A stretch of 64,000 bases of DNA from Candidatus Woesebacteria bacterium (lineage in GTDB: Bacteria; Patescibacteriota; Microgenomatia; UBA8517). Of this stretch, positions 1-14,317 are shown in pieces. Position 1 is the first letter of the stretch; each line of letters starts with the position of its first letter. Position numbers and translations under genes: made by a program. Under the pieces are notes generated by a model. That model saw only the letters and a program-made list of their open reading frames with translations, did not search any database and was not told the origin of the DNA. The stretch lies in NCBI GenBank assembly GCA_016926185.1, contig JAFGPD010000010.1:1444-65443 (forward strand). The letters are read 5' to 3'.

Positions 1-79
1 ATCGGTACTGTTTTCACGGACTTCACCGCAAAGTACCAAAATTGTTGCGGCAGGGCAATTTTTGAGCATATAATAAACT

Positions 80-712
80 ATGGATGCAACCGAAAATACG
101 TCTGATGCTTCTGAGGATTTCAGTGTTGCCAAAAGCGAAAAAGCAAAAAGCCAGCCGCGTTTCCACGGAAAGTTTTTCAAAGCCGCATCACCATCCGATA
201 AGGGAAAGAAGGCCGATAAGCCCGGATTGGTCGTTAATTTTACTGAGAACAAAGCGAGTCCTACTTTGACCGGCGATGATGCGCCGCTTGTTGATGTTAA
301 GGTAACAAACCCCGTGACCTATCTGAAAAAGTGGTGGAAAAAGATCATCGGTAACGAAGGGATCATGTTGAAATTTTCCCTGAAAATAAAACCTCTCACG
401 GCTTTTCTTCTGGTTGCTTTTGTTGTGTCCGGCGGAATAACAATAAATCTTTTAAATAGACTCCGGGATAAAAGCTCTGTTGCCCAATATATTCCTGCTT
501 TCGGATATGCTGAGCCCGTCGAGCGTGCATTCAGCGGCCGGCTGGAATCGGACGGGAAAGGTAACTATTTCGTTATTACTGCAACTGAAGTGATAAGGGT
601 TCAGAGCAATTTGGATCTTGAGCCATTTATGGGTGAAAATGTTTTGGTTAGCGGTTCATATAGTGATGCTGTTAAAACATTGAGTGTAACCCGGATCAAA
701 AAATTATTATAA
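80..712 (+). CDS. Hypothetical membrane-anchored protein with one central TM segment
   Basis: 210-aa ORF with Lys-rich N-terminus and a hydrophobic stretch LTAFLLVAFVVSGGITINLL; no recognisable catalytic motifs. Confidence 0.4.
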   Translation: MDATENTSDASEDFSVAKSEKAKSQPRFHGKFFKAASPSDKGKKADKPGLVVNFTENKASPTLTGDDAPLVDVKVTNPVTYLKKWWKKIIGNEGIMLKFSLKIKPLTAFLLVAFVVSGGITINLLNRLRDKSSVAQYIPAFGYAEPVERAFSGRLESDGKGNYFVITATEVIRVQSNLDLEPFMGENVLVSGSYSDAVKTLSVTRIKKLL

Positions 713-785
713 ACACCTGCTGAGCGATTGATTAGATTAATTGTCTTCTGAATTATTAATATAATTAGATAATCTTAAAACTGAT

Positions 786-1016
786 ATGGCTAAAGTACAG
801 TTCTCGGGAAAAGCAATAAAGAAAATGGAAGATTCAAATCTTTCTGAGAAGAAAGTGTTGGATGCCTATAAGGGCGGTGATGAGCAAAAGTGGAGTAACG
901 GAAAAGGATTCAATTCAGTAAAGAAGTACCCGGGATATGAAATTGGTGTTGCTTATTTTAAAAATGATGAGGGAACTTCTATTATCACTTCAGTATGGAA
1001 AAGAAAAAGAAGATAA
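786..1016 (+). CDS. DUF4258-like small protein (toxin-like fold), paralogous in motif to the 22532-22822 gene
   Basis: 76 aa; C-terminal ITSVWKRK resembles the IISVWSKK end of the 22532 protein, which carries the HALERMRDRGI hallmark of DUF4258. Confidence 0.4.
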   Translation: MAKVQFSGKAIKKMEDSNLSEKKVLDAYKGGDEQKWSNGKGFNSVKKYPGYEIGVAYFKNDEGTSIITSVWKRKRR

Positions 1017-1017
1017 T

Positions 1018-1046
1018 TTGACCCTATAATATATAAGAGGTAAAAT
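1018..1046 (+). promoter_or_regulatory. Sigma70-like promoter TTGACC-N17-TAAAAT ending 8 nt before the ATG at 1055 (leaderless-type)
   Basis: TTGACC at 1018-1023, 17-nt spacer, TAAAAT at 1041-1046; an 18-mer TTTGACCCTATAATATAT identical to 10737-10754. Confidence 0.45.
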
Positions 1047-1054
1047 ATAAAGCA

Positions 1055-1339
1055 ATGGGAGAAAGATATAACGGTTATCCTTTGCTTTTTACTGAGGATC
1101 CTGAACCAGAGATAGTCGAGCTAAACCAACGAGAGGATGAGGTTCTGTATGAGAGATTTGAAGGGAATGATGTCCTTAGCTGGAAAGTCGAAGGTGTTCA
1201 CCCTGGAAGAAATCCGTTGGTTTTGGGACGTTTTCATGATGAAGAAGGTAGATTTGATGGATATTATCATGTAAAAGTGCTTGATGGTAAACCAAAAGAA
1301 ATATTAGTATCTCCAGATAAAATGACTAAAAGGGAATAA
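1055..1339 (+). CDS. Hypothetical small acidic protein
   Basis: 94-aa ORF directly downstream of the conserved promoter box; no recognisable domain. Confidence 0.4.
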   Translation: MGERYNGYPLLFTEDPEPEIVELNQREDEVLYERFEGNDVLSWKVEGVHPGRNPLVLGRFHDEEGRFDGYYHVKVLDGKPKEILVSPDKMTKRE

Positions 1340-1436
1340 ACTGTAACTTTTTAAATAAATTGCCTTCGGCTTCGCCTTCGTAATTTTTATATCTTTTACT
1401 ACTGTTTTCCATTTGTTTATTTTTTTAAACGCTGTT

Positions 1437-1470
1437 AATATTCTCACATTCTTGAGAAAGTGAGAATATT
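1437..1470. promoter_or_regulatory. Perfect 11-bp inverted repeat (AATATTCTCAC-N12-GTGAGAATATT), candidate ArsR autoregulatory operator
   Basis: Palindrome read directly; ends 16 nt before the ArsR-family gene ATG at 1487. Confidence 0.5.
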
Positions 1471-1486
1471 AGGATAAAGTGAATGT

Positions 1487-1753
1487 ATGAATACCAAACG
1501 ACTTCAAAAGATTGTAAAAGGTTTTTCGAATCATAGAAGAATTCAAATTATGGAACTTTTGGAAACTTATCCTGATTTATCTTTGTCTGACATTGCAAGC
1601 AGAACTAAGATTAATTTAAAAACAGCAGGTGAACACACAAGAAGACTTGATGCATCTGGTTTAATAGAAAAAAATTACAGGGGAAGAGATGTGATACATT
1701 CACTAACAATTTTAGGCAAGAACATTCTTACGTTCTTAAGAAAGTTAGAATGA
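1487..1753 (+). CDS. ArsR/SmtB-family winged-helix transcriptional regulator
   Basis: 88 aa; NHRRIQIMELLETYPDLSLSDIASRT matches the ArsR HTH signature. Confidence 0.7.
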   Translation: MNTKRLQKIVKGFSNHRRIQIMELLETYPDLSLSDIASRTKINLKTAGEHTRRLDASGLIEKNYRGRDVIHSLTILGKNILTFLRKLE

Positions 1754-1786
1754 TTTGGAATCTCTGAATTTGACCCATTTTAAATA

Positions 1787-1815
1787 TTGACGCTTTTTAT
1801 TTCACGCGGTTTAAT
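1787..1815 (+). promoter_or_regulatory. Conserved promoter copy 1 (TTGACG-N17-TTTAAT) abutting the ATG at 1822
   Basis: TATTGACGCTTTTTATTTCACGCGGTTTAAT; near-identical copies at 6154-6184 and 6521-6551. Confidence 0.45.
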
Positions 1816-1821
1816 GGAGAC

Positions 1822-2121
1822 ATGAGTGACACCAATAAATTGTTTCAAAAAATTGTGAATGGCCAGAGTGCCATGAAGCAAGCAATCCTAAAAGAAGTAA
1901 AAAAGGTAGATAGTAAACTGAGTGGCAGGATGGATACTCTTGAACAGAAACTTGGCAAACTTGATAAAAAAATTGATAAAGGATTCAAGGAAGTTAATAA
2001 CCGATTGGATAAGCAGGGAAAATCTTTAGCTTATCTGGAAGATGATGCTCCAACGGTTGAGGAATTTGATAAGCTGGAAGAAAGAGTTACCGAGATTGAG
2101 GATAAAGTGCTTCACGCTTGA
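1822..2121 (+). CDS. Small coiled-coil protein, paralog A (unknown function)
   Basis: 99 aa, heptad-rich and charged, no TM; paralog of 6191-6469 at the DNA level, including a ~57-nt near-identical 3' stretch. Confidence 0.55.
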   Translation: MSDTNKLFQKIVNGQSAMKQAILKEVKKVDSKLSGRMDTLEQKLGKLDKKIDKGFKEVNNRLDKQGKSLAYLEDDAPTVEEFDKLEERVTEIEDKVLHA

Positions 2122-2152
2122 TTTGACATAAATTGCCTTTGCACCCAATTTT

Positions 2153-3601
2153 TTAATGGGTAATTATATCTTTTAACACTTTATTGAGCTTATTTCCATC
2201 CCACAATTCAACATTATTTGAAGATGCCAATTGTCTTGCACTTTTGGTAAATTTAGAGGTTGTGATGACCATAGCTCTGTCACATTTATAATGCTTTGTT
2301 GCTGCAACAGCTTCTTGAATTGCCTTATTGGTAACTGGCTTAGAGTATCTTTTTGCTTGTACCGCGATTTTTTCTCCTCCCTTTTTTATGATCAGATCAG
2401 CACCCTGGTCACCCGAAACAGGTGTTTTTACTACCAAGTGTCCAAGTTTTTTGAATAAATCTTGTAAAAGATCTTCGAATTCAATACCACTCAGATCATT
2501 TATTTTTCTACTAGAAAATTGGTTGGCAGAGGAACTTTTTCCCATTTTTAGTTCATTCTCGAAATTTTCAATCTCTTTTTGTTCTTCTTTTCTTTTTATT
2601 AAATCAATGATCTCTTCTTCCGGCAGGTCTTCGGTAGTAATATCCAGCTCTATAAATAATCGATTTAAAGTATAAGAAAATACCTCGTTGAAGTCCGTTT
2701 CGTACTCTCTGAGTGTTGGTATGGTGTCTTGGGTTTTCATTGCCGATAAACATGCTACAAAAGAAGTAACTACATCGTCTTTGGTAATAACATAACTTTC
2801 TGGTTCGTTAGATTTAGACTGTTTTAAATGAATAAATGTTGCTTCCCTGAGAGATCTGAATAAAGCTTCTTTCTGCGGACCCAGATTTATTGCTCTCAAT
2901 TTCTTGTGTTTATTCAGAAGCAGATCAGTAAGTTCCTCGTAATTTAAGCTGATGTCATTCTTTTCAAATATTGCCAACAGTTTTGGATAATCACTAAATA
3001 TGGTCAGCATCGATTCGAGCATGTCTTTGAATTGGCTATCCGGAGAGTCTACTTCCGGAAAACTCTGTTCTATTTCGATAATTTTATTACTGATAGTCAT
3101 TTTTATATTATCAATATCATTTAACCTTATCGCATTGAGAATAAATGGTGCTTTAGGAATAATGGCAAGTGAGGCAAAGTGTGCATTCCCAACTCTTTCG
3201 ATAAAAGATTTAAGAAAGTCTGTTTCAAGTTTTGCGATCTTCTCTTCCAGTTGTGTTATACGCAGTTTTTTTTCTTGTTCATTCTTTTTTATTTCATTTT
3301 TGATCTTTTCATAATTTTCTAAAGCAGAACTTTCTGAATCTTCTATGGAGATCTCTATACCATATTCACTTAAGAGCCTTTGGTTTAAAAGCGTAAAGGT
3401 GGACAACAGATCTTCTTCGGATGTTTCTTGATCCACTTCATCAATTAGTGTACGTATCAAAGCAAGTGTGATTTCATCCTGGGTTATCTCATAAAGATCA
3501 AGACTGCTTAGCCGGCTTTCTACTTTCGGTTTGACAATGTCTAGTAAATTCTCAAGGTGTTCAAGTGCTTTTTGTATTGCCATATCACGTTGGTTTGACA
3601 T
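2153..3601 (-). CDS. Mrr-like type IV restriction endonuclease catalytic domain fused to a ~350-aa N-terminal domain of unknown function
   Basis: C-terminal GADLIIKKGGEKIAVQAKRYSKP...VITTSKFTKSA...VELWDG matches the Mrr_cat PD-(D/E)xK-like core; N-terminal part is coiled-coil-rich with no recognised domain. Confidence 0.6.
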   Translation of the reverse strand: MSNQRDMAIQKALEHLENLLDIVKPKVESRLSSLDLYEITQDEITLALIRTLIDEVDQETSEEDLLSTFTLLNQRLLSEYGIEISIEDSESSALENYEKIKNEIKKNEQEKKLRITQLEEKIAKLETDFLKSFIERVGNAHFASLAIIPKAPFILNAIRLNDIDNIKMTISNKIIEIEQSFPEVDSPDSQFKDMLESMLTIFSDYPKLLAIFEKNDISLNYEELTDLLLNKHKKLRAINLGPQKEALFRSLREATFIHLKQSKSNEPESYVITKDDVVTSFVACLSAMKTQDTIPTLREYETDFNEVFSYTLNRLFIELDITTEDLPEEEIIDLIKRKEEQKEIENFENELKMGKSSSANQFSSRKINDLSGIEFEDLLQDLFKKLGHLVVKTPVSGDQGADLIIKKGGEKIAVQAKRYSKPVTNKAIQEAVAATKHYKCDRAMVITTSKFTKSARQLASSNNVELWDGNKLNKVLKDIITH

Positions 3602-3691
3602 TGCCTTATTTTAGCAAATAGGAGTAAATAAAAATGGAGAATCTTACGGTATATGATCAAAATAAATATTACTCGAAACCAACCTACACAT

Positions 3692-3720
3692 TTGACCCTA
3701 TAGTGGATAAGGGTATATAA
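3692..3720 (+). promoter_or_regulatory. TTGACC-N16/17-TATATA promoter box upstream of a 17-codon ORF and the GmrSD-like gene
   Basis: CATTTGACCCTATAGTGGATAAGGGTATATAA; same motif family as 1018, 6779, 7556 and 10738. Confidence 0.4.
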
Positions 3721-3825
3721 TTTACCCATATTCATGGCAAAAAAGAACACTTCTGGTAGAGAGAATCTAGAGATATTTGCATAGATTGCAAAAGATGTTA
3801 GAAATATGTGAGAATACAGAAGAAA

Positions 3826-5562
3826 ATGGAAATTATTACAGATAAGAAAAAACTTGTTGATCTGGTAACAGGTGCAAGAAAAGGAAAAGTTGTTTTGCCT
3901 CAATTTCAAAGATCATTTGTCTGGTCTTATGTAGATGTTGTTGATTTATTGGTTTCAATTTTTAATGGTTATTATGTAGGAAGCTTTTTAACTTTGAAGT
4001 GTGACAGTGAGAATGTACCCTTTGACTTTCGTACTATCGAGGGAGTTAATAAACAAAATGAAGATCTTAATCCAGAGGTGATGATACTGGATGGACAACA
4101 AAGGATTACTACACTTCATTATGTATTGTATGCGCCGGAAGAAATTACACTAAAGTACGCGAAATATCCTTATAGATTTTTTCTGAAACTTGATAGTTTG
4201 GTTAATGGTGATTTTGATAATGCAATTTATGGTATTAGATCAGACCAGTCAGAGAAATATATGTCACCCGAGTGGCAGTTCGAGAATAAAACCATTCCAT
4301 TCACAACACTTCAGGACTTTCAATCTTGGGATTCTTGGCTTGATAGTTACCAAGATTGGCTGCGCTCAATAGATGAAGAACAGTACGAAAATTATGTTAC
4401 CGCAGAGAGAGCAGACTGGAAGCAATCAATAAATGTATTTTTCGACATGGTTATACCAATAATCGAGATACCGAAAGTCAAAAGTGATGACGAAGACGGC
4501 GTAGCGGAAGTGTGCGCTATCTTTGAAAAAATTAACACAAAAGGTGTGAAATTATCGGTATTTGATTTGCTTACTGCCCGTCTTTTTAAATACAAAATTG
4601 ACCTGCATAAGTTATGGGAGGAAACACTAGAAACTTATAATTTGATAGATGATTTTTCGGAGGGGGAAAGTAACCCATATGGTATTTTTATTTTGAGAAT
4701 TATAGCGCTCATTAGAGGAGTCGATGTTAAAAGTAAAAATCTGATAAATTTGAAGCCAAATAACTTTGAGAATGATTGGGCGAACGCGTCAAAATATTTA
4801 CACAAAGCACTAAAAAGATTGATATCAACTAACGACGACGGTTTCGGCGTTTTTGATAAAAAATGGATGCCATATCCACCACTTCTCCCTGTATTATCTT
4901 CAGTTTTGTACCTTATCGATAAAAATAATTATAATAATTCCGCCTATAAAGCAATTAAAAAGTGGTATTGGGGATCTGTATTTGGCGAGAGATATCAAAG
5001 CGCTGTTGAAAGCAAGACAACATCGGATTTTAGAGAGATATCTCGCTACCTATCTGGTGAAGAAGTAAGCATTAAACTGTTTACTGAAATAGATGCAAAT
5101 ATAACTCTTAACGAACTATATGAAGTGAAGAGTGTCAACAGGATCAATTCAATTTATAAAGGAGTGATGAACTTATTAGCAATTAACCAAGCAAGAGATT
5201 TCCTGTTGCATGATAGTATTGAATTTCATGAACTTGATGATCACCACATTTTCCCGAAAGCATATTTGGCCAAAATTAAAGATGAGGAAGATCAGGTAAA
5301 GTATAAAGATAATTTGATAAATACAATCGTGAATAAAACCCTGATAAGTTATAGTACAAATAGAAAAATAAGTAAAAAGAAACCATCCGATTATGTAAAG
5401 GATAATAATTTAATTGTTCAGGCTTCTGTTAAAAGTATTTTGAAACGTCACTTTATCAATCAGGAAGCGTACGAGGCTATGTGTATGAATGATTATGAAA
5501 AATTTGTTAATGAGAGGAGTAACGTGTTAGTTAAAAAGATTAAGTCGCTTCTCCAAATTTGA
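3826..5562 (+). CDS. GmrSD-like type IV restriction enzyme (DUF262 ParB-like nuclease N-domain + DUF1524 HNH-like C-domain)
   Basis: LPQFQRSFVW and DGQQRITT (DUF262 signatures) near the N-terminus; HELDDHHIFPKAYL near the C-terminus (DUF1524-like); first in-frame ATG at 3826, although the ORF opens at a GTG at 3808. Confidence 0.75.
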   Translation: MEIITDKKKLVDLVTGARKGKVVLPQFQRSFVWSYVDVVDLLVSIFNGYYVGSFLTLKCDSENVPFDFRTIEGVNKQNEDLNPEVMILDGQQRITTLHYVLYAPEEITLKYAKYPYRFFLKLDSLVNGDFDNAIYGIRSDQSEKYMSPEWQFENKTIPFTTLQDFQSWDSWLDSYQDWLRSIDEEQYENYVTAERADWKQSINVFFDMVIPIIEIPKVKSDDEDGVAEVCAIFEKINTKGVKLSVFDLLTARLFKYKIDLHKLWEETLETYNLIDDFSEGESNPYGIFILRIIALIRGVDVKSKNLINLKPNNFENDWANASKYLHKALKRLISTNDDGFGVFDKKWMPYPPLLPVLSSVLYLIDKNNYNNSAYKAIKKWYWGSVFGERYQSAVESKTTSDFREISRYLSGEEVSIKLFTEIDANITLNELYEVKSVNRINSIYKGVMNLLAINQARDFLLHDSIEFHELDDHHIFPKAYLAKIKDEEDQVKYKDNLINTIVNKTLISYSTNRKISKKKPSDYVKDNNLIVQASVKSILKRHFINQEAYEAMCMNDYEKFVNERSNVLVKKIKSLLQI

Positions 5563-5619
5563 TCCTTTACCTTTTCTTCTATTTAGTTTCTATTTTATGC
5601 ATGCTATTCTTAGCCACCG

Positions 5620-6102
5620 ATGCAGAGAGATTTGATCTACAAGATTGCAAAGAATGAATTTATATTAGGAGACGAGTCTTTGCATGGAGAAGAACACTGG
5701 AGTAGAGTGGAGAAAATTGGTATATATTTGTCTGAGTTGACCGGTGCGGATGTTGATGTGGTAAGGATATTCGCCTACTTACATGATTGTAAAAGAGAAA
5801 ACGAAATGGAGGATCCCGGGCACGGGGAAAGAGCTGCTGAACTAGTCAAGAAATTGTCCGCGGAAGGTGTTTTGCAGCTAGGTGAGAAGAGTCTGTCGGA
5901 ACTTATTTATGCTTGTTATCATCACAATAAAAAGAGTAAATCTTCTGAGAATATAAATATATTGACTTGTTGGGATAGTGACGCCTTAGATTTGTGGAGA
6001 ATTGATATTGTTCCCGACCCTAATTGGCTAAATACGAAAGAAGCCAGAAGCAGAAAATTAATTAGCTTTTCCTATAAATTATTTGAAAAGTATAAAAAGT
6101 AA
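5620..6102 (+). CDS. Small HD-domain phosphohydrolase
   Basis: HGEEHWSRV ... YLHDCKRE ... DPGHGERAAELV gives an H..HD..H..D arrangement. Confidence 0.5.
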   Translation: MQRDLIYKIAKNEFILGDESLHGEEHWSRVEKIGIYLSELTGADVDVVRIFAYLHDCKRENEMEDPGHGERAAELVKKLSAEGVLQLGEKSLSELIYACYHHNKKSKSSENINILTCWDSDALDLWRIDIVPDPNWLNTKEARSRKLISFSYKLFEKYKK

Positions 6103-6155
6103 GACCCTAATAGTAAGTATGATGTGTATTAACATCTGAATTGACTCTTTATATA

Positions 6156-6184
6156 TTGACGCTTTTTATTTCACGCGGTTTAAT
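6156..6184 (+). promoter_or_regulatory. Conserved promoter copy 2 (TTGACG-N17-TTTAAT) 6 nt before the ATG at 6191
   Basis: Near-identical to 1787-1815. Confidence 0.45.
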
Positions 6185-6190
6185 AAGGAT

Positions 6191-6469
6191 ATGGATGATG
6201 TAAAGAAAATGTTTCAAAAAATTGTGAATGGCCAGAGCGCCATGAAACAAGAGATACTTAAAGGAATTAAAAAAGTAGAGGATAAACTAACAAGCAGAAT
6301 AGACGGACTTGAAAAGAAAACTGAAAAAGGATTCAAAGAAGTTAATAGCCGTTTAGATAAACAAGGAAAATCCTTAGCTTATCTGGAGGATGATGCTCCA
6401 ACGGTTGAGGAATTTGATAAGCTGGAAAAAAGAGTTGCCAAGATTGAGCAAAAAGTGCTTCACGCTTGA
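6191..6469 (+). CDS. Small coiled-coil protein, paralog B
   Basis: 92 aa; MFQKIVNGQSAMKQ...LAYLEDDAPTVEEFDKLE...KVLHA shared with paralog A. Confidence 0.55.
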   Translation: MDDVKKMFQKIVNGQSAMKQEILKGIKKVEDKLTSRIDGLEKKTEKGFKEVNSRLDKQGKSLAYLEDDAPTVEEFDKLEKRVAKIEQKVLHA

Positions 6470-6522
6470 TTTAACATAAATTGCCTTCGGTGAAAATGGA
6501 TATAATTTGACCTTTTTAAATA

Positions 6523-6551
6523 TTGACGCTTACTATTTCATGCGGTTTAAT
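6523..6551 (+). promoter_or_regulatory. Conserved promoter copy 3 (TTGACG-N17-TTTAAT) before the ATG at 6558
   Basis: TATTGACGCTTACTATTTCATGCGGTTTAAT, a diverged copy of the 1787 and 6156 element. Confidence 0.4.
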
Positions 6552-6557
6552 AGGGAT

Positions 6558-6767
6558 ATGGCAGATAAATTCCTCACTGAAGAAGATATAGATCTTTTGG
6601 AATCAAGACTAAAAGAAGTTTTTGTGACAAAAGAAGACTTCACGGAATATAAAAGTGAACTCTTTGGTAAGTTGGACGAAATAATCAAAAATACCCGTGA
6701 TACTAATGATGAAGTTGAACTTGTTGAAAATAGAATTACCACAATTGAGACAAAGTTAGCTTCATAA
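6558..6767 (+). CDS. Small coiled-coil protein sharing the promoter of the paralogs but not their sequence
   Basis: 69 aa from the ATG at 6558 (MADKFLTEEDIDLLESRLKE...); the annotated ORF start at 6507 would lie inside the promoter box. Confidence 0.4.
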   Translation: MADKFLTEEDIDLLESRLKEVFVTKEDFTEYKSELFGKLDEIIKNTRDTNDEVELVENRITTIETKLAS

Positions 6768-6778
6768 ATTTTCCCAAT

Positions 6779-6807
6779 TTGACCCCATAATGTGTTGGAT
6801 GTAATAT
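6779..6807 (+). promoter_or_regulatory. TTGACC-N17-TAATAT promoter 7 nt upstream of the ATG at 6815
   Basis: CAATTTGACCCCATAATGTGTTGGATGTAATAT. Confidence 0.4.
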
Positions 6808-6814
6808 TGGGCTG

Positions 6815-7240
6815 ATGAGTACGAAAATAGCACTTCTTATGTCCACTAATGATTGGGAGAAGATGAATATTTATCTTAAGCACTTGTCGAAGAATCAAAG
6901 GGCAGCTTGGAGAAATAATCTTAAATATAGCAAGCGATTTCTTGAAAGTATCGGCTATCCAATCAATTTATATTTCTTTCACAGAAATATAGTTAAATTC
7001 AGAGCAAATTGCGTTGGAATTTTCCAAAAAAAAGACAGAATGTGGCTGGATGGCGAGATACCTGAAGAGTATAAGTCTTCTAAGACTGAGTTTACGACAG
7101 CGGTTTATTTCGATAAACTGAAAAGGGTTAAAGATACACATATAAGTGAGTTTCCAAAGTGGGATGACCCCTCGGAAAGTTTTGAAAGAGGACAGCAGGG
7201 ACTATTAAGAGTTGTAGATCTATTGGATATAGAAAATTGA
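6815..7240 (+). CDS. Hypothetical protein
   Basis: 141-aa ORF with its own promoter box; no recognised domain. Confidence 0.4.
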   Translation: MSTKIALLMSTNDWEKMNIYLKHLSKNQRAAWRNNLKYSKRFLESIGYPINLYFFHRNIVKFRANCVGIFQKKDRMWLDGEIPEEYKSSKTEFTTAVYFDKLKRVKDTHISEFPKWDDPSESFERGQQGLLRVVDLLDIEN

Positions 7241-7241
7241 A

Positions 7242-7529
7242 ATGAAAATCTTTGGTGGTTTATTAATAATATTTGGTTCTGTTTGGACTTTATGGCGATT
7301 GCTGAAACAACCCGAGATGTTTAGGATCACTAGGCAAAACAAAAAAGATAAAGGTAAATTGTCAGGAATCATCACCTATATTTTTTCAGAAACTTTTGGG
7401 TTATGGCCTAGTTTATTGATCATTTATTTTGGATTGAAAATGACAATTCCCGGGATCTTGCCGATTTTTACTAAAGCCGTATATGCACTTATTTTTGCTT
7501 TACTTCTTTTGTTTTTCGGTTTAATATGA
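7242..7529 (+). CDS. Hypothetical small membrane protein (3 predicted TM segments)
   Basis: 95 aa, hydrophobic stretches; starts 1 nt after the upstream stop. Confidence 0.35.
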   Translation: MKIFGGLLIIFGSVWTLWRLLKQPEMFRITRQNKKDKGKLSGIITYIFSETFGLWPSLLIIYFGLKMTIPGILPIFTKAVYALIFALLLLFFGLI

Positions 7530-7555
7530 ACAACTGAATTAACTTTCCTTCCAAT

Positions 7556-7584
7556 TTGACCCCATAGTCTTATCTAAGTATAAT
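7556..7584 (+). promoter_or_regulatory. TTGACC-N17-TATAAT promoter 10 nt upstream of the ATG at 7595
   Basis: CAATTTGACCCCATAGTCTTATCTAAGTATAAT. Confidence 0.45.
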
Positions 7585-7594
7585 ATCCTATATT

Positions 7595-8260
7595 ATGGAA
7601 AGATTGCACGGGGTTGAAGTGCTAAGAAATTATTCTTTCAAAGATACCTCATTACCTTATGAGATAGCTTTGGATAAATTATCTTTAAGAACACAGGCTG
7701 CAGTCGGAAAAAATATTGATGATCTGAGGGCTAAGCAAGATTATAATTCCCATCGAAAGAAAGCTCTTAGAGAATTGGATCAGTTGGAACAAATATTTGA
7801 AATAGATACAATACGCGGCGGTTTCTCTTTTAATGAGGATGAACTTAATGAAGTTTATGAGAGTATGGGTCACTTATCATATTCTGAGATCGTCAGAGGG
7901 TTCGGAGATGATATTCTTCCAAGGTTTTTTGGAGGAGTCTTGTCTGAACGTACGCCGGGAGCCACAATATCGGGATACTTGCTGGATATTACTCAAATTG
8001 TTAACCCGGATGTTGTCTCATACGAAGATAGTATAAGGGAAATGGCGAATTCTCTAAGAGGTACCAAAACTAACCCGTTTATGTTAGGTATCTGTTTTGA
8101 TGATGCAATAAATTTGAGAGGAACAGCCACCTTACCTCATGAATTTTTTATGGATAGTGAAGAAGCGAAAAGATTTGTGCAGGTATATCGCAATTCAATT
8201 AATCCTATGGAAAGAAAAGAATTTAAACAGGGATTAGATTTAAAAATAGTTGCATTGTAA
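7595..8260 (+). CDS. Hypothetical protein
   Basis: 221-aa ORF; no recognised motifs. Confidence 0.45.
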   Translation: MERLHGVEVLRNYSFKDTSLPYEIALDKLSLRTQAAVGKNIDDLRAKQDYNSHRKKALRELDQLEQIFEIDTIRGGFSFNEDELNEVYESMGHLSYSEIVRGFGDDILPRFFGGVLSERTPGATISGYLLDITQIVNPDVVSYEDSIREMANSLRGTKTNPFMLGICFDDAINLRGTATLPHEFFMDSEEAKRFVQVYRNSINPMERKEFKQGLDLKIVAL

Positions 8261-8356
8261 TAAAAAGACTTACACATCCAGATTATTGAAATAAATTGTC
8301 TTCGAGTTCCTGACTTTTTAATTTGACCACTGTATCTAAAGTGTGACAAGATATAG

Positions 8357-10705
8357 ATGTACTTAATGACAGATCTGAAGAATTTTTTCTCTAAATTCAA
8401 AACGAATAAAAAGCTGAAATATATTCTTATTTTCTATTGCGTAATTATTGTTTCCTTCCTCTTTTACAAAGCACTGAACGCCGATTTTAACTTTAATTTA
8501 GGAAAGATCGATGACTGGCAATTCACTCCTGATGTGACTTCTTCACTTTATGATCTTGATATAGGTAAATTTATGCGCAATTTGTCGGTTGTACAGTTTT
8601 TTGTGCTTATTGTTCTTCATTTTCTATATGCTCTTATACCGATAAACATTTTTTATCTGAATTATCGTTTTTTTGGATTTATTGTACGCAGGTTCAGAAA
8701 AGAGCTTAAATTCGGCAGCCGAAAGAATGTTGGCAGATCTATTCTTCTGCTTATTTTGGGAATTTTATCTGCCGGTGCCACAGTTTACTTATCTATACAA
8801 AGCAATTGGATCCTGCCTCCTGTTTTGGGTGCGGCAGTAATAGTATTAGCGTTAACACTTATTTATATAATCGTTTCCTCAATTTTATTGATTGTTAGAA
8901 CACTGAACATAATTTACAGAAAGCTGGCTAATAAATCCCTTTTTGGCATGAAGAGGAAATGGCTGTGGAACTTTAGTAGTGTAGTATCTGTATTGCTAAT
9001 ATTGGTGTGGGTGGGATTAAATATATGGGAAATATTTTTCGGGATTGATCTTTTCAGTGCTACAAATATCACTCCGGTTGGTGGTGGTCTAACGTCGATG
9101 AGCGCACCCTCATTCGGTTCATCTACAGGTACTTTCAATCTATCGCCTGATAGTGCACTCATGCCGTCAGGGGGAGGAGGATTTAGCGGTAGAACCTCTG
9201 ACAATATAGGCTTTTCTACAGGAGGAGCGAAGGATATAAATAACTTCAGGGAAAATATTAAAAATAAATACTTACCGCTTTTTACCGACGTGACTTATGA
9301 GGGACTTTTCTATGATTATTATTTTGATACTGGTCAGCAAGAGGAATGTGCTGAGCTTTTTTGTCCGTCGTATAGTTATGCACAATCTGCCGATCCGCTG
9401 TCAGGAGAGCCGCAATATTTCCTTTCGGTCGGCCTAAATTCCGGCATTAAACAATCTGATTTCCAAAGAAAGAAGCTCAATCTTGTTATTGTGATGGATA
9501 TTTCCGGCTCTATGAGCTCGAGTTTTAATAGATATTACTACGATCGTAAAACTAACGAATATGATGCTGAAGAGGAAAGTAAAAGCAAGATGCAGGTTGC
9601 GAATGAATCGGTTGTTGCGTTGCTTGATCATTTAAATCCTCAGGACAGGTACGGAATGGTATTGTTTGACGGCAGTGCTTATCTGGCTAAACCACTGAGG
9701 CTTTTAGATACAACAGACCTGGAAAGTATAAAGGGTCACATTCTTGAGATATCTCCGCAGGGTTCTACGAACATGGAGGCGGGATATAAACTCGGTACTG
9801 AGGTTATTGAAGAATACTTGGATATAGACCCCGAGGAATATGAGAATAGGATAATCTTTTTGACCGATGCACAGCCCAACACCGGTGTTTTAAGCGAGGA
9901 AGGATTGGTAGGACTATCTCTAAATAATGCAGATAGGGGAATCTATACTACATTTATCGGGATCGGAGTGGATTTTAATACCGAGCTTATTGAAGCAATG
10001 ACAAAGATAAAGGGTGCCAATTACTATTCTATTCACTCTGCTTCTGACTTTAAGTACAGAATGGATGAAGGTTTTGACTATATGGTCACACCTTTGGTTT
10101 TTGATCTTGTTTTAAAGCTTGATAGTCCTGGGTTTACTATTGATAAGGTATATGGATCTCCGGAGGCGAATCTGGCAACTGGGGAGATAATGAGAGTTAA
10201 TACCTTATTCCCATCTGATAGCACATCGGAAGGTGTTAAGGGAGGAATTGTTCTTCTGAAATTATCTAAAAATACTGATTCGGCTGAGGAAGTGAGTTTG
10301 GAGGTTTCATACGAGGATCGATTGGGTCAGCTGCACAATAATGAAAAGAAAGCAAATATAACAGTTATGGACAGCGATTATTATCCCAATACTGGTGTAC
10401 GAAAAGCAATATTGCTGACACGCTATGCAAATCTTTTGAAAAATTGGATACAAGATCAAAGATCAATATCTCAGCAAAACACTACTTATACAGAACCCTG
10501 TGTAAGTTCTGAGAGTGGTATTATTATTCCGGTTGAGAGAGAATTAAGTCGGTGGGAGAGAACTTCAGTTCCTTTAAAGGTAATGCCCGAATACAGGGAC
10601 TTCTTTTTTACATTTAATAATTACTTCGTTCAGGAAATGCAATATTTGCAGGATCAGGATCTTGAACGGGAGGTGCAGGTTTTTGATCTTTTAATTAACA
10701 ATTAA
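8357..10705 (+). CDS. Multi-TM membrane protein with Gly/Ser-rich linker and von Willebrand factor A (vWA) domain
   Basis: Several N-terminal hydrophobic helices; Gly-rich segment containing GTFNLSP; vWA MIDAS-like LNLVIVMDISGSMSS and later FLTDAQPNTG. Confidence 0.6.
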   Translation: MYLMTDLKNFFSKFKTNKKLKYILIFYCVIIVSFLFYKALNADFNFNLGKIDDWQFTPDVTSSLYDLDIGKFMRNLSVVQFFVLIVLHFLYALIPINIFYLNYRFFGFIVRRFRKELKFGSRKNVGRSILLLILGILSAGATVYLSIQSNWILPPVLGAAVIVLALTLIYIIVSSILLIVRTLNIIYRKLANKSLFGMKRKWLWNFSSVVSVLLILVWVGLNIWEIFFGIDLFSATNITPVGGGLTSMSAPSFGSSTGTFNLSPDSALMPSGGGGFSGRTSDNIGFSTGGAKDINNFRENIKNKYLPLFTDVTYEGLFYDYYFDTGQQEECAELFCPSYSYAQSADPLSGEPQYFLSVGLNSGIKQSDFQRKKLNLVIVMDISGSMSSSFNRYYYDRKTNEYDAEEESKSKMQVANESVVALLDHLNPQDRYGMVLFDGSAYLAKPLRLLDTTDLESIKGHILEISPQGSTNMEAGYKLGTEVIEEYLDIDPEEYENRIIFLTDAQPNTGVLSEEGLVGLSLNNADRGIYTTFIGIGVDFNTELIEAMTKIKGANYYSIHSASDFKYRMDEGFDYMVTPLVFDLVLKLDSPGFTIDKVYGSPEANLATGEIMRVNTLFPSDSTSEGVKGGIVLLKLSKNTDSAEEVSLEVSYEDRLGQLHNNEKKANITVMDSDYYPNTGVRKAILLTRYANLLKNWIQDQRSISQQNTTYTEPCVSSESGIIIPVERELSRWERTSVPLKVMPEYRDFFFTFNNYFVQEMQYLQDQDLEREVQVFDLLINN

Positions 10706-10737
10706 AGTGTGACATTGTACTTTTTTGTTCTTCTAGT

Positions 10738-10766
10738 TTGACCCTATAATATATTTGAGTTAAAAT
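10738..10766 (+). promoter_or_regulatory. TTGACC-N17-TAAAAT promoter 7 nt upstream of the ATG at 10774
   Basis: Near-identical to the 1018-1046 box. Confidence 0.45.
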
Positions 10767-10773
10767 ACTTGTA

Positions 10774-11043
10774 ATGGAATGTATAAAATGGCTGAGAGAA
10801 AGATTTTTCAAAGGAATTCGCGAAGTGAATGAGGACTCTGGAGAGAAGGCTTTTGGAAGATTACCTGAGAATATTCAAGCTGATTTGACATCTGCAAACG
10901 TAGAGGACCGTATTAAAGCTGCCAACTGGCTGGCAGAACAGGAACTAACTGGAAAGATCAGTCGTGGCACTGGTTCAGCACAGAGTTTTGCTGCAGACGT
11001 AATAGCACAGAGAGAATTATCTTCAAAAAATACAAAAAGTTGA
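10774..11043 (+). CDS. Hypothetical small protein
   Basis: 89-aa ORF behind the conserved promoter. Confidence 0.4.
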   Translation: MECIKWLRERFFKGIREVNEDSGEKAFGRLPENIQADLTSANVEDRIKAANWLAEQELTGKISRGTGSAQSFAADVIAQRELSSKNTKS

Positions 11044-11295
11044 TAGTTTTACAGATTAATTTCAAGGCCCTGTTTAAAGTTTTTAGACCTTAAGGTTTGG
11101 TAATTACTTTATTTTGTGGTATAATTTCCATGTGACAAGCAGATCGAAGGAATATATCTGCTTAAATAGATTTAACGTTTTGAGTAAATAAGATAAGGAT
11201 ACCCCAAATAGATTTAATTAATTAAAGTATCTTCATCAGCAAATTCATTATAAGTTTCTTCATTTAGGCAGTTATGTTTTTTTGATCTTAAGATC

Positions 11296-12480
11296 ATGTA
11301 TAAAAGACATTATCACAGTAGAAACAACAGAGGAGCAAACAACAAAAGAATTAATAATGCTAGTCAGGTAGTTAGTGCTATACGTGCTATTAAATCTCTT
11401 CCAAAGGAAAGTATAAGTGATGACTCCGATAAATTCATTCCATTGAATGAATTTAAAGACTTTGCAATATCGGACAGATTGAAGTTAAACATACAAAACA
11501 AAAGATATGAACTTCCTACTCCGATCCAGGACAAGGCTATTCCCTCTATTCTTGATGGGCGAGATATTATTGGAATTGCCAATACCGGAACCGGAAAAAC
11601 CGCAGCTTTTCTCATTCCTCTAATTGAAAAGGTTTCAAGAGATCCCAGTCAAAAAGTAATTATTATTTTACCGACAAGAGAGCTCGCGGATCAGACCAGC
11701 GACGAGTTGTATGGATTTACATACGGAACACCGGTAAGCTGGACAGTGTGTGTAGGAGGGAAAAATATGGTAAAGCAAATTAACGACCTGGAAAAAGGAC
11801 CAAATTTTGTAATAGGAACACCGGGAAGACTTCTTGATCTGTCCAAGAAAGGCTTTTTGAATTTAAGAGAATTTGGAAATGTTGTACTCGACGAGGCTGA
11901 CAGAATGGTTGATATGGGCTTTATTCGAGATATTAGATATTTTATTGCCAATCTACCGAAAGACCGTCAGTCTTTGTTTTTCTCTGCAACCATTCCACCA
12001 AAAGTGGGAGAGATCTTGAAAAATTTTGTATCAGATCCGGTGACGATATCTGTTAAAAAAAGTGATGCAATTTCCAATATAGATCACGAGCTGATAAATG
12101 TTAACAATAAAGCAGCCAAGTTCAAAAAACTCAGCGATCTATTAAGAAGAGATGAACTGGAAAAAGTACTGATTTTTGGGCGTACAAAATGGGGTGTGCA
12201 AAAGCTTTCCAATGAACTTTATAAGAAAGGTTTCAATACGGGTGCGATACATGGGAACAAAAACCAATCGCAACGACAAAGAGTACTTGATGATTTTAAG
12301 GCTGGAAGGATCAGGATCATGATCGCAACAGATGTTTTGTCAAGAGGAATAGATGTTGATGACATTAGTCATGTAATTAACTATGACCTCCCGGGTTCGT
12401 ATGAGGATTATATTCACAGGATCGGGCGTACTGGACGGGCGAAAAAAAACGGAGTAGCGCTGACTTTTGTAGAAAATTGA
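11296..12480 (+). CDS. DEAD-box ATP-dependent RNA helicase
   Basis: Q-motif ELPTPIQ, Walker A NTGTGKTAAF, DEAD (VLDEADRM), SAT, HRIGRTGRA. Confidence 0.85.
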   Translation: MYKRHYHSRNNRGANNKRINNASQVVSAIRAIKSLPKESISDDSDKFIPLNEFKDFAISDRLKLNIQNKRYELPTPIQDKAIPSILDGRDIIGIANTGTGKTAAFLIPLIEKVSRDPSQKVIIILPTRELADQTSDELYGFTYGTPVSWTVCVGGKNMVKQINDLEKGPNFVIGTPGRLLDLSKKGFLNLREFGNVVLDEADRMVDMGFIRDIRYFIANLPKDRQSLFFSATIPPKVGEILKNFVSDPVTISVKKSDAISNIDHELINVNNKAAKFKKLSDLLRRDELEKVLIFGRTKWGVQKLSNELYKKGFNTGAIHGNKNQSQRQRVLDDFKAGRIRIMIATDVLSRGIDVDDISHVINYDLPGSYEDYIHRIGRTGRAKKNGVALTFVEN

Positions 12481-13567: not shown

Positions 13568-14317
13568 ATGAGCAAATACTATAATCCTAAAAGAGGAAGT
13601 GATTGGAATTACGGAGGCAGGAACTGGAAACTGAGCCGATCAAAGCTTGAACTTTTTCTTGAATGTCCAAAGTGTTTTTATCTTGATAATAAGTTGGGGA
13701 CCAAAAGACCTCCCGGGTATCCCTTTAACTTAAATACAGCTGTTGATACTCTTTTGAAAAAGGAATTCGATATCTTGCGTGCAAAAGGAGAAAAACATCC
13801 TTTGCAGAAAGAATATGGAGTGGATGCAGTTCCTGTTCCACATGAGGATTTGGATGAGTGGCGGGATAATTTTAAAGGTGTCGCAATCACTCACGAAAAA
13901 ACTGGGATGATCGTCACTGGAGCGATCGATGATCTTTGGATCGATTCCAATGACAACTATATCGTTGTAGATTATAAATCGACTTCGACAGACGAACAAA
14001 TTACGGAGCTTACAAAGGACCATCATGAAAGCTATAAAAGGCAGATGGAGATATATCAGTGGCTGCTTCGGCAAAAGGGATATAAAGTCTCTGACAAAGG
14101 ATATTTTGTTTACTGTAATGGGCGCACTGATGTTGAGGCATTTGATGGGAAGATCGAGTTTGATGTTACGTTGATCGAGTATGTTGGAGATGACAGTTGG
14201 GTTGAGAATACCATTATTGCAGCCCATAAATGTTTGGAGTCGGATGATATCCCTAAGTCCGATGAAGACTGTGATTATTGTGCCTATCGTAAAACTGTCG
14301 AGAAATTAGAAAAATAA
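13568..14317 (+). CDS. Cas4/RecB-like PD-(D/E)xK nuclease with a Cys4 cluster (solitary; no cas genes nearby)
   Basis: ECPKCFYL at the N-terminus, IDDLWID...IVVDYKST nuclease core, C-terminal C...CDYCAY, as in Cas4/AddB-type Fe-S nucleases. Confidence 0.6.
   Translation: MSKYYNPKRGSDWNYGGRNWKLSRSKLELFLECPKCFYLDNKLGTKRPPGYPFNLNTAVDTLLKKEFDILRAKGEKHPLQKEYGVDAVPVPHEDLDEWRDNFKGVAITHEKTGMIVTGAIDDLWIDSNDNYIVVDYKSTSTDEQITELTKDHHESYKRQMEIYQWLLRQKGYKVSDKGYFVYCNGRTDVEAFDGKIEFDVTLIEYVGDDSWVENTIIAAHKCLESDDIPKSDEDCDYCAYRKTVEKLEK

What the first reader, a model, noticed from the sequence alone, without database searches (positions are those of the whole stretch)
1437..6767. Type IV restriction-like module (Mrr-domain fusion, GmrSD-like, HD protein) bracketed by ~350-bp direct repeats that each encode a small coiled-coil protein, with an ArsR regulator at the edge
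The sequence shows two clear restriction-type genes, divergently arranged. One is a protein whose C-terminus is an Mrr catalytic core (GADLIIKKGG...QAKRYSKP...ELWDG) behind a ~350-aa unrecognised N-terminal domain. The other is a DUF262/DUF1524 GmrSD-like enzyme (LPQFQRSFVW, DGQQRITT, DHHIFPKA), followed by a 160-aa HD-domain protein. Immediately left (~1771-2142) and right (~6141-6490) of this ~4-kb block are direct repeats. By eye most positions are identical, including a ~57-nt stretch with a single mismatch. Each carries the same TTGACG-N17-TTTAAT promoter, a ~95-aa coiled-coil ORF and a shared 3' motif ATAAATTGCC. A third promoter-only copy drives a different small coiled-coil ORF at 6558. 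An ArsR-family regulator with a perfect 11-bp palindromic operator sits just upstream. Long direct repeats flanking a defense cassette could mediate excision or cassette exchange. The coiled-coil proteins have no obvious function and may be regulators, anti-defense decoys or part of the system itself.
Basis: partly seen in the sequence, partly recalled or inferred. Interest (0 to 1): 0.75.

Follow-up and report, generated by a model that had tools for sequence, protein, structure and literature searches.

The report
Restriction genes between duplicated small genes
Two restriction-type nuclease genes in an uncultured Woesebacteria genome sit between two old duplicate copies of a small gene that is common across this bacterial group and is not linked to defence elsewhere, so this is an ordinary small defence island, not a new repeat-bounded mobile cassette.

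Summary
Two direct repeats (1763-2139 and 6132-6487) are 85% identical. Each is a full expression unit: promoter, a 99- or 92-aa helical ORF, and a 3' motif. A third promoter copy drives a 69-aa ORF. Between the repeats lie an Mrr_cat nuclease fusion, a BrxU/GmrSD-like enzyme and a small HD protein. An ArsR-type regulator lies to the left.

- The repeats are old paralogues (dS 0.57, dN/dS 0.22) of a ~90-aa family found across Microgenomates. In 47 species its neighbours are variable or housekeeping (Obg/YchF, rpsF-ssb-rpsR). Defence-model hits are no more common near the gene than 5.5-10 kb away.
- Homologues of the HD protein sit in non-defence contexts and are never next to DUF262, so there is no conserved three-gene module.
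- The regulator belongs with the small gene, not with the nucleases. The pair and its two palindromic operators are conserved in another Woesebacteria genome.
- There is no integrase, tRNA or GC shift, and no variant contigs were found. Excision could not be tested.
- A Type III-like R-M system lies just left of the window.

Verdict: an ordinary chromosomal defence island inside a cluster of lineage-specific small genes. Interest is low to moderate.

The parts
1436..1471 (.). Operator O1. A 36-bp palindrome (core ATTCTCACATTCTTGAGAAAGTGAGAA, 1440-1466) that overlaps the -35 box and spacer of the regulator's own promoter.
   Evidence: Inverted repeat I15. The pattern occurs only twice in 64 kb. 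The 26-nt core is identical in L006 at 9593-9620.
1452..1480 (+). Promoter of the regulator gene: TTGAGA-N17-TAAAGT, ending 6 nt before the ATG (leaderless geometry).
1487..1753 (+). 88-aa ArsR/SmtB-like winged-helix regulator with no cysteines.
   Evidence: Pfam HTH_24/HTH_5/MarR. NCBIfam HTH_metalloreg, below cutoff. A 74%-identical orthologue lies directly upstream of a cc gene in L001/L006.
1724..1750 (.). Operator-like palindrome O2, inside the last 9 codons of the regulator gene and about 40 nt upstream of the cc1 promoter.
   Evidence: (I8). It is conserved at the same place in L006, at 9880-9906.
1763..2139 (+). Left repeat unit: a complete expression unit made of promoter, cc1 and 3' motif.
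1787..1815 (+). Class B promoter copy 1 (TTGACGCTTTTTATTTCACGCGGTTTAAT).
1822..2121 (+). cc1: a 99-aa member of the Microgenomates-wide helical protein family (locus tag JXA63_00805).
   Evidence: AlphaFold2 model: helix 3-75, break at DDAPT, helix 79-98, pLDDT 87.
2153..3601 (-). 482-aa nuclease fusion: a rare all-alpha N-terminal region (1-350) plus a C-terminal Mrr_cat PD-(D/E)xK domain (D402, Q415, K417).
3692..3721 (+). Class A promoter (TTGACC-N18-TATAAT) about 100 nt upstream of the GmrSD-like gene. A 16-codon upstream ORF (3735-3785) lies in between.
3808..5562 (+). GmrSD/BrxU-like enzyme (DUF262 with DGQQR, plus DUF1524 with DHHIFP). The likely start is the ATG at 3826.
   Evidence: Pfam. 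PADLOC HEC-05 match end to end, E 1.6e-25. Weak N-terminal match to BrxU 7p9k. HEC-05 is the BrxU family.
5620..6102 (+). 160-aa HD-domain protein, probably a passenger. Its homologues are not linked to defence.
6132..6487 (+). Right repeat unit: promoter, cc2 and 3' motif.
6156..6184 (+). Class B promoter copy 2.
6191..6469 (+). cc2: 92-aa paralogue of cc1 (locus tag JXA63_00825), 73% amino-acid identity.
6523..6551 (+). Class B promoter copy 3. It differs from copies 1 and 2 at 3 positions.
6558..6767 (+). cc3: a 69-aa helical ORF. Only its last 22 residues resemble the cc family, and not significantly.

Best explanation
The window comes from a Candidatus Woesebacteria chromosome. The region is a small chromosomal defence island with three parts. 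A Type III-like methyltransferase plus Res helicase-nuclease lies just left of the window. An Mrr_cat nuclease fusion and a BrxU/GmrSD-like type IV enzyme lie at 2153-5562. These genes sit inside a cluster of small lineage-specific genes.

The 'direct repeats' are not element boundaries. They are two old paralogous copies of a complete expression unit: a leaderless promoter, a ~90-aa ORF and a 3' motif. The ORF belongs to a helical protein family found across Microgenomates. Both copies are under purifying selection. Their promoter and 3' half appear to have been partly homogenised, probably by gene conversion (inferred).

The ArsR-like regulator is the conserved partner of the left copy. It probably represses its own promoter through operator O1. 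It may act on cc1 through O2 (inferred).

The two nucleases most likely act independently, each as a single-protein restriction enzyme:
- The GmrSD-like enzyme would be an NTP-dependent, modification-dependent nuclease like BrxU. This is inferred from its family.
- The Mrr_cat fusion would be a nuclease controlled by a rare all-alpha N-terminal domain of unknown specificity.

The HD protein is probably a co-transcribed passenger.
For: Organism and family:
- One search finds exact matches to Woesebacteria locus tags and 79 family members, all from Microgenomates.
- One search shows conserved motifs: NGQ, R-D-G and LAYLEDDxPT.
- One search finds 47 loci in GTDB genomes.

Neighbourhoods of the family:
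- Searches show variable neighbours, with recurrent Obg/YchF GTPases, rpsF-ssb-rpsR and CtpB.
- In one search the top Pfam families among 150 near neighbours are GTPases, ArsR HTH, MFS, HAD and NUDIX. No R-M families appear in the top 25.
- Searches give similar PADLOC profiles for genes within 3 kb and for genes at least 5.5 kb away.
- Searches find no phage copies.

Age of the paralogues:
- One search gives dN 0.125, dS 0.57 and dN/dS 0.22. dS is 1.21 in the 5' half and 0.29 in the 3' half.
- One search gives 85% identity, with a longest perfect tract of 39 nt.

Duplication is common in the family:
- Two or three cc copies lie 0.1-7.2 kb apart in L006, L007, L030, L039, L041 and L057.
- The intervals hold Obg, PDDEXK_1, GNAT, HD_3, a serine hydrolase and a radical-SAM gene.

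Regulator pairing:
- The regulator-cc adjacency and both operator palindromes are conserved in L006.
- The operator occurs only twice in the window.

Defence genes:
- The Type III-like R-M upstream is shown.
- The HD protein is unlinked to DUF262 elsewhere.

No signs of a mobile element:
- GC is flat.
- No tRNA is present.
- No recombinase domain was found in the 13 proteins scanned across 80-10705; the 95-aa ORF at 7242-7529 was not scanned.
Against: - In the three Woesebacteria-like genomes with widely spaced cc copies (this window, L006, L057), R-M genes lie within a few kb. A local association in this clade therefore cannot be excluded, though the sample is only three genomes.
- No closely related genome without the nucleases was found, so the ancestral gene order is not known.
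- The function of the cc family is unknown, so a role that touches defence cannot be formally excluded.
- The closest relative (L053, a 1.1-kb contig) has a single cc gene in a different gene order (o76-like, cc, p210). This shows the region rearranges.
Confidence: 0.7

Rival explanations
1. Repeat-bounded cassette. The two cc repeat units act as recombination substrates. The 4-kb nuclease block can then be excised, or swapped for other cargo, by homologous recombination.
For: - The copies are in direct orientation and share perfect tracts of 39 and 32 nt.
- Synonymous divergence is uneven along the gene (dS 1.21 against 0.29), and the 32-nt promoter core is identical. Both suggest past gene conversion between the copies.
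- Three genomes have two cc units 4.4-7.2 kb apart with different content between them.
- A short-read contig of the same genome breaks inside the repeated promoter. This only shows the sequence is repeated.
Against: - Identity is only 85% and dS is 0.57, so this is not a recent or actively homogenised pair.
- In L006 the interval contains the essential-type GTPase Obg and other non-defence genes.
- Independent assemblies of L006 and L057 show the same interval content.
- No recombinase, tRNA or GC shift is present.
- The one apparent variant junction (L079) is an assembly chimera. It has Ns in the repeat and joins into the middle of an R-M gene.
Confidence: 0.1
2. The cc proteins are functional components of the restriction genes they flank, acting as regulators, decoys or partners.
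For: They are adjacent to the nucleases. They share an identical, strongly conserved promoter, which suggests co-regulation of cc1, cc2 and cc3.
Against: - The family is mostly single-copy in 47 species, without Mrr or GmrSD neighbours.
- No homologue of the Mrr fusion, the GmrSD-like protein or the HD protein was found in any of the 80 or so related loci.
- Only 2 clusters related to the Mrr N-terminal region exist among 1.84 billion representatives, whereas the cc family is common.
- The nuclease genes do not carry the class B promoter.
Confidence: 0.05
3. Hot-spot model. In one Woesebacteria clade the regulator/cc neighbourhood is a preferred site where accessory genes, often defence genes, accumulate. 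Duplication of the cc unit is a by-product of repeated insertion and rearrangement.
For: - R-M genes lie within a few kb of the cc copies in all three clade members with long contigs. These are a Type III-like system here, MwoI-type plus HicAB in L006 and an Eco57I-type enzyme in L057.
- Synteny beyond the regulator-cc pair is not conserved.
- L053 shows a different gene order around cc.
Against: - Only three genomes support it, and R-M genes are common in these small genomes.
- The family-wide near-versus-far comparison shows no enrichment.
- No insertion scars or mobility genes were seen.
Confidence: 0.15

Closest known systems
BrxU / GmrSD-family type IV restriction enzymes (PADLOC model HEC-05)
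   Same: - Single polypeptide with an N-terminal DUF262 domain carrying DGQQR.
- A long helical linker.
- A C-terminal DUF1524 His-Me finger motif (DHHIFP, against DHIYP in BrxU).
- End-to-end match to the HEC-05 model, which represents the BrxU family.
   Different: - Sequence similarity to solved BrxU is weak: E 2e-4, N-terminal 80 residues only.
- Pfam GmrSD_C scores below its cutoff.
- It is not embedded in a BREX or Hma system.
- Its substrate (modified DNA) is untested.
Mrr-family type IV enzymes and other Mrr_cat fusions (PADLOC PDC-S02, ZorD C-terminus, mREase_IV)
   Same: - C-terminal Mrr_cat PD-(D/E)xK domain with invariant D402, Q415 and K417.
- The fold matches AF1548 and the nuclease domains of MspJI and AspBHI.
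   Different: - It lacks the winged-helix DNA-binding N-terminal domain of E. coli Mrr.
- Instead it has a ~350-aa all-alpha region with no Pfam, PDB or fold match.
- Only 2 related clusters exist among 1.84 billion representatives.
Chromosomal defence islands
   Same: Several unrelated restriction-type genes are clustered within about 10 kb: Type III-like R-M, an Mrr_cat fusion and a GmrSD-like enzyme.
   Different: No mobility genes, tRNA or composition shift. The island is interleaved with small lineage-specific genes that share standard promoter and 3' motifs.
Repeat-bounded gene cassettes (integron cassettes, recombination-flanked islands)
   Same: Direct repeats of about 360 nt flank a block of accessory genes.
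   Different: The repeats are whole diverged genes with promoters (85% identity), not recombination sites. There is no integrase. The same gene family is mostly single-copy elsewhere.
ArsR/SmtB autorepressors (such as the SdpR type)
   Same: A small winged-helix protein with a palindromic operator that overlaps its own promoter.
   Different: It has no cysteines, so it lacks the classical thiol metal-sensing site (read directly from the sequence). A second operator copy lies inside its own 3' coding end. Its effector is unknown.

Membership tests
GmrSD / BrxU type IV restriction enzymes | N-terminal DUF262 (ParB-like NTPase) domain with the DGQQR motif | tested here: met
   Pfam GmrSD_N E 1.1e-28 over residues 18-260. 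The sequence reads ILDGQQRITT.
GmrSD / BrxU type IV restriction enzymes | C-terminal DUF1524 His-Me finger nuclease with a D/E-H-x-x-P motif | tested here: inconclusive
   Pfam GmrSD_C scores 21.3 bits, below the 23-bit cutoff. The motif DDHHIFP is present, and the PADLOC HEC-05 model aligns end to end (6-583 against 19-594 of 600, E 1.6e-25).
GmrSD / BrxU type IV restriction enzymes | Cleavage that depends on modified (hmC or glucosyl-hmC) DNA, plus NTP dependence | not testable with these tools
   This needs biochemistry or phage assays.
Mrr (type IV) restriction endonucleases | Mrr_cat PD-(D/E)xK catalytic core with D...QxK | tested here: met
   Pfam Mrr_cat E 9.7e-32. D402, Q415 and K417 are invariant in alignment A3. 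The fold matches AF1548, MspJI and AspBHI nuclease domains.
Mrr (type IV) restriction endonucleases | N-terminal winged-helix domain that recognises methylated DNA (Mrr_N) | tested here: not met
   No Pfam hit in residues 1-350 at E <= 0.1. The model is all-alpha with no fold match. Only 2 related clusters were found.
Conserved multi-gene defence system (Mrr fusion + GmrSD-like + HD) | The component genes co-occur in other genomes | tested here: not met
   HD homologues lie in non-defence contexts without DUF262. No homologue of the three genes occurs in any related locus.
Mobile cassette / genomic island bounded by repeats | A recombinase or integrase, tRNA or att-type target, near-identical boundary repeats, and a composition shift | tested here: not met
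   No recombinase domain in the proteins scanned across 80-10705 (13 proteins, not every ORF). No tRNA. GC 0.34-0.37 inside against 0.34-0.40 elsewhere. The repeats are 85% identical with dS 0.57.
Mobile cassette / genomic island bounded by repeats | Occupied and empty sites, or different cargo, in close relatives | tested here: inconclusive
   No close relative with long contigs was found. The best is L053 at 1.1 kb. Assemblies of L006 and L057 show no variation. L079 is a chimera.
ArsR/SmtB metalloregulators | Winged-helix fold of the ArsR family | tested here: met
   Pfam HTH_5 E 2.6e-5, above cutoff. NCBIfam HTH_metalloreg E 1e-8, but below its cutoff.
ArsR/SmtB metalloregulators | Cysteine-based metal-binding site (of the ELCVCD type) | tested here: not met
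   The 88-aa sequence contains no cysteine.
Microgenomates ~90-aa helical protein family (unnamed) | Conserved N-terminal NGQ, central R-x-D-x-x-G and C-terminal LAYLEDDxPT-x-E-x-D-x-L motifs in a ~90-aa all-helical protein | tested here: met
   cc1 and cc2 carry all the invariant columns of alignment A2. cc3 does not.

The most novel reading that the evidence does not exclude
In one Woesebacteria clade the duplicated cc expression units, together with their ArsR-like partner, mark a recombination-prone slot. Accessory genes, mostly restriction genes, are gained and lost there. The paralogous ~360-nt units would act as the homology arms. This would be a gene-flanked, integrase-free cargo site in ultra-small CPR genomes.
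Probability: 0.12. Interest if true: 0.55.

Novelty: new member of a known kind. Interest (0 to 1): 0.25.

Why it matters
If the plain reading is right, this adds one more example of clustered restriction genes in a CPR bacterium. It also adds one rare Mrr_cat fusion whose N-terminal domain is almost unique in current databases.

Two by-products are more useful than the cassette idea:
- A well-conserved, uncharacterised ~90-aa helical protein family, specific to Microgenomates and often duplicated.
- A conserved regulator-operator pair with a second operator embedded in the regulator's own coding end.

Neither answers a long-standing question. Both are modest leads for CPR biology, where most small genes have no known function.

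Tried and rejected
- L079 first looked like a restriction gene bracketed by a cc fragment and a full cc gene. Alignment to L057 showed it joins the first 50 nt of one cc copy to the interior of the Eco57I-type gene, and it carries Ns in the repeated promoter. It is an assembly chimera and was discarded.
- I tested whether leaderless promoters single out the cc genes. They do not. Only 6 of 73 genes in the window have an SD-like sequence, and many have a -10 box just before the ATG.
- I tested whether cc3 is a diverged cc paralogue. The hhalign probability is 4%, with similarity only in the last 22 residues.
- I looked for a known fold or family for cc. PDB sequence search returned only generic coiled-coil hits, and Pfam and PADLOC hits were below threshold. 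The afdb50 fold library was unavailable.
- Rfam search of 1-12000 and of the upstream contig found nothing above chance.
- The metagenome scan for close relatives found no cc protein more than 67% identical.
- Literature searches on CPR leaderless genes and on Woesebacteria defence found nothing specific.
- I tested for a general ArsR-cc pairing. Direct adjacency exists only in this window and the L006 lineage. Other ArsR genes lie 0.9-2.7 kb away in two loci.

Full report
**What is there**

The window matches a 67-kb contig of a Candidatus Woesebacteria bacterium. cc1 and cc2 are its locus tags JXA63_00805 and JXA63_00825. The gene order in the finding is as follows:
- an 88-aa ArsR-type winged-helix gene (1487-1753);
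- cc1 (1822-2121, 99 aa);
- an Mrr_cat fusion on the minus strand (2153-3601, 482 aa);
- a GmrSD-like gene (3808/3826-5562);
- an HD-domain gene (5620-6102, 160 aa);
- cc2 (6191-6469, 92 aa);
- cc3 (6558-6767, 69 aa).

**The repeats**

The repeat units are 1763-2139 and 6132-6487. They are 85% identical (300 of 353 aligned positions) and differ by one 7-codon indel. The local alignment score is 227.5, against a maximum of 20 for shuffles. The longest perfect tracts are 39 and 32 nt.

The 29-nt promoter TTGACGCTTnnTATTTCAyGCGGTTTAAT occurs three times in 64 kb, where none is expected by chance. Each copy ends 6 nt before an ATG. So each repeat is a whole expression unit: promoter, ORF and the 3' motif ATAAATTGCCTT. 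That 3' motif also follows three other nearby genes.

**What the repeats are**

cc1 and cc2 belong to a family of ~90-aa proteins with 79 database relatives, all from Microgenomates: Woese-, Shapiro-, Davies-, Blackburn- and Gottesmanbacteria. The family has invariant NGQ, R-x-D-x-x-G and LAYLEDDxPT-x-E-x-D-x-L motifs. The AlphaFold2 model is one long helix (3-75), a break at DDAPT and a second helix (79-98), with pLDDT 87. No known family or solved structure matches beyond generic coiled coils.

cc1 against cc2 gives dN 0.125, dS 0.57 and dN/dS 0.22. These are old paralogues, and both are under purifying selection. dS is 1.21 in the 5' half but 0.29 in the 3' half, and the 32-nt promoter core is identical. 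This suggests partial gene conversion, or strong constraint on the promoter (inference).

Duplication of this gene is common:
- two copies 5.7 kb apart in L006;
- two copies 7.2 kb apart in L057, where the units are about 367 nt and 90% identical;
- three copies in L007;
- near-tandem pairs in L030, L039 and L041.

In a neighbour-joining tree the copies within one genome group together in the window, in L057 and in L030, but not in L006.

**Is the family linked to defence?**

Across 47 species loci the neighbours are mostly unique. The recurrent ones are Obg/YchF GTPases, rpsF-ssb-rpsR and a CtpB-type peptidase.

I sampled 150 proteins encoded within 3 kb of cc genes. Their top Pfam families are GTPases, ArsR HTH, MFS, HAD and NUDIX. 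No R-M families appear in the top 25. PADLOC hits for this near set resemble those for 150 proteins encoded at least 5.5 kb away: SoFic 2 against 3, mad2 2 against 3, PDC-S05 1 against 1.

No copy of the family exists in IMG/VR or INPHARED phages. No homologue of the Mrr fusion, the GmrSD-like protein or the HD protein occurs in any of the roughly 80 related loci.

The intervals between widely spaced cc copies in other genomes hold non-defence genes:
- L006: Obg and PDDEXK_1;
- L057: GNAT, PDDEXK_1, HD_3 and a serine hydrolase;
- L007: a radical-SAM/SPASM gene.

**The regulator**

The palindrome at 1436-1471 overlaps the regulator's own promoter (TTGAGA-N17-TAAAGT, leaderless). A second copy (1724-1750) lies inside the regulator's last nine codons, about 40 nt upstream of the cc1 promoter. 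These are the only two copies in 64 kb.

In another Woesebacteria genome (L001/L006) a 74%-identical regulator sits directly upstream of a cc gene. Both palindromes are conserved there, and the 26-nt core of the first is identical. That genome has no Mrr or GmrSD homologue at the locus.

The regulator therefore belongs with cc, not with the nucleases. It has no cysteine, so it is not a classical thiol metal sensor.

**The defence genes**

The GmrSD-like protein has these features:
- GmrSD_N (E 1e-28) with DGQQR, and a DHHIFP motif. Pfam GmrSD_C scores just below its cutoff.
- An end-to-end match to PADLOC HEC-05, E 1.6e-25. Payne and colleagues equate HEC-05 with BrxU (bioRxiv 10.1101/2024.01.29.577857).
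- Only weak sequence similarity to the solved BrxU structure.

The Mrr fusion has these features:
- A clear Mrr_cat core with D402, Q415 and K417 invariant among relatives.
- A fold that matches AF1548 and the nuclease domains of MspJI and AspBHI.
- An all-alpha N-terminal 350 residues with no Pfam, PDB or fold match. Only 2 related clusters exist among 1.84 billion representatives, one of them a full-length 478-aa orthologue.

It lacks the winged-helix domain that defines E. coli-type Mrr. It should therefore be described as an Mrr_cat nuclease fusion, not as a proven type IV enzyme.

Homologues of the HD protein lie in a glycogen operon, next to MFS/TyrRS genes, or among unknown genes. It is probably a passenger. 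It may be co-transcribed, because it follows the GmrSD-like gene after 57 nt with no promoter match.

**Wider context**

A short-read contig of the same genome extends 4.3 kb to the left of the window. It shows a DNA methyltransferase and an 843-aa ResIII/SWI2-SNF2 restriction protein directly upstream of the first window gene. The region is therefore a small defence island. That contig ends at window position 1813, inside the repeated promoter, as expected for a repeat.

GC content is flat. There is no tRNA. No recombinase domain was found in the 13 proteins scanned across 80-10705.

The closest relative is a 1.1-kb contig (L053). It has a single cc gene with the same dual-box promoter, but in a different gene order (o76-like, cc, p210 homologue). 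So the region does rearrange.

**Excision or cassette exchange**

This could not be tested directly. The evidence against it:
- the repeats are 85% identical and old;
- an essential-type gene (Obg) lies between the copies in L006;
- independent assemblies of L006 and L057 show no variation;
- the one apparent variant (L079) is a chimera.

The evidence for it:
- the copies are in direct orientation;
- there are signs of gene conversion;
- R-M genes lie near the cc copies in all three clade members with long contigs.

I give the cassette reading about 0.1 and a looser hot-spot reading about 0.15.

**Verdict**

The sequence features are real and were well described. The best explanation is an ordinary chromosomal cluster of independent restriction-type genes lying between old paralogues of a lineage-wide small gene, with the ArsR-type regulator tied to that small gene. 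Novelty: a new member of a known kind. Interest: 0.25.

Noticed in passing
L054 1-4129 (same genome, directly left of window position 1): A Type III-like R-M pair lies directly upstream of the first window gene: a beta-class N6/N4 DNA methyltransferase (531 aa or more) and an 843-aa ResIII/SWI2-SNF2 restriction protein. The defence island therefore extends beyond the window.
   Followed up: partly
window 1724-1750; L006 9880-9906: A second copy of the regulator's operator palindrome is embedded in the last nine codons of the regulator gene itself. It is conserved in a genome whose regulator is only 74% identical. The centre-to-centre spacing to the first operator is 284 bp here and 287 bp in L006.
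   Followed up: partly
window 1016, 1770, 3690, 6777, 7554, 10736: An extended -35 motif AATTTGACCCyATA recurs upstream of six genes, all on the + strand and all within the first 11 kb. It is also present in L006 and L053. This suggests a shared promoter class or a local regulon.
   Followed up: partly
window 736, 1355, 2128, 6476, 8291: A 3' motif ATAAATTGyCTT(CG) lies 8-30 nt after the stop codons of five + strand genes, all within the first 8.3 kb. It may be a terminator-like or processing element in a genome with few canonical terminators.
   Followed up: no
whole window: Leaderless gene starts appear to be the norm. Only 6 of 73 called genes have an SD-like sequence, and many have a TAnnnT box 5-10 nt before the ATG.
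   Followed up: partly
window 26-50 and L054 4196-4400: Four palindromes of the form CCGCAA-N-TTGCGG lie upstream of the 210-aa gene at 80-712. They are conserved in the relative L053. No Rfam family matches.
   Followed up: no
window 3735-3785: A 16-codon upstream ORF (MAKKNTSGRENLEIFA) and a leader of about 100 nt lie between the class A promoter and the GmrSD-like start. This is unusual in a genome that is otherwise leaderless.
   Followed up: no
window 1945-1965 (cc1 codons 42-48): cc1 and cc2 differ by exactly one heptad (7 codons). The same region varies by heptad-sized indels across the family, consistent with a coiled coil of adjustable length.
   Followed up: partly
window 13568-14317; L006, L057, L007: A PDDEXK_1 (Cas4/RecB-like) protein of about 225-250 aa recurs within a few kb of cc genes in four genomes. 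In L006 and L057 it lies between the two cc copies.
   Followed up: no
L053 290-565: In the closest relative, the single cc protein has the first 20 residues of cc1 exactly, followed by a cc2-like middle without the heptad insertion. This mosaic pattern fits recombination among cc copies.
   Followed up: partly
L079: This JGI contig is a repeat-induced assembly chimera. It has Ns in the cc promoter and a junction from the 5' end of one cc copy into the interior of an Eco57I-type gene.
   Followed up: yes
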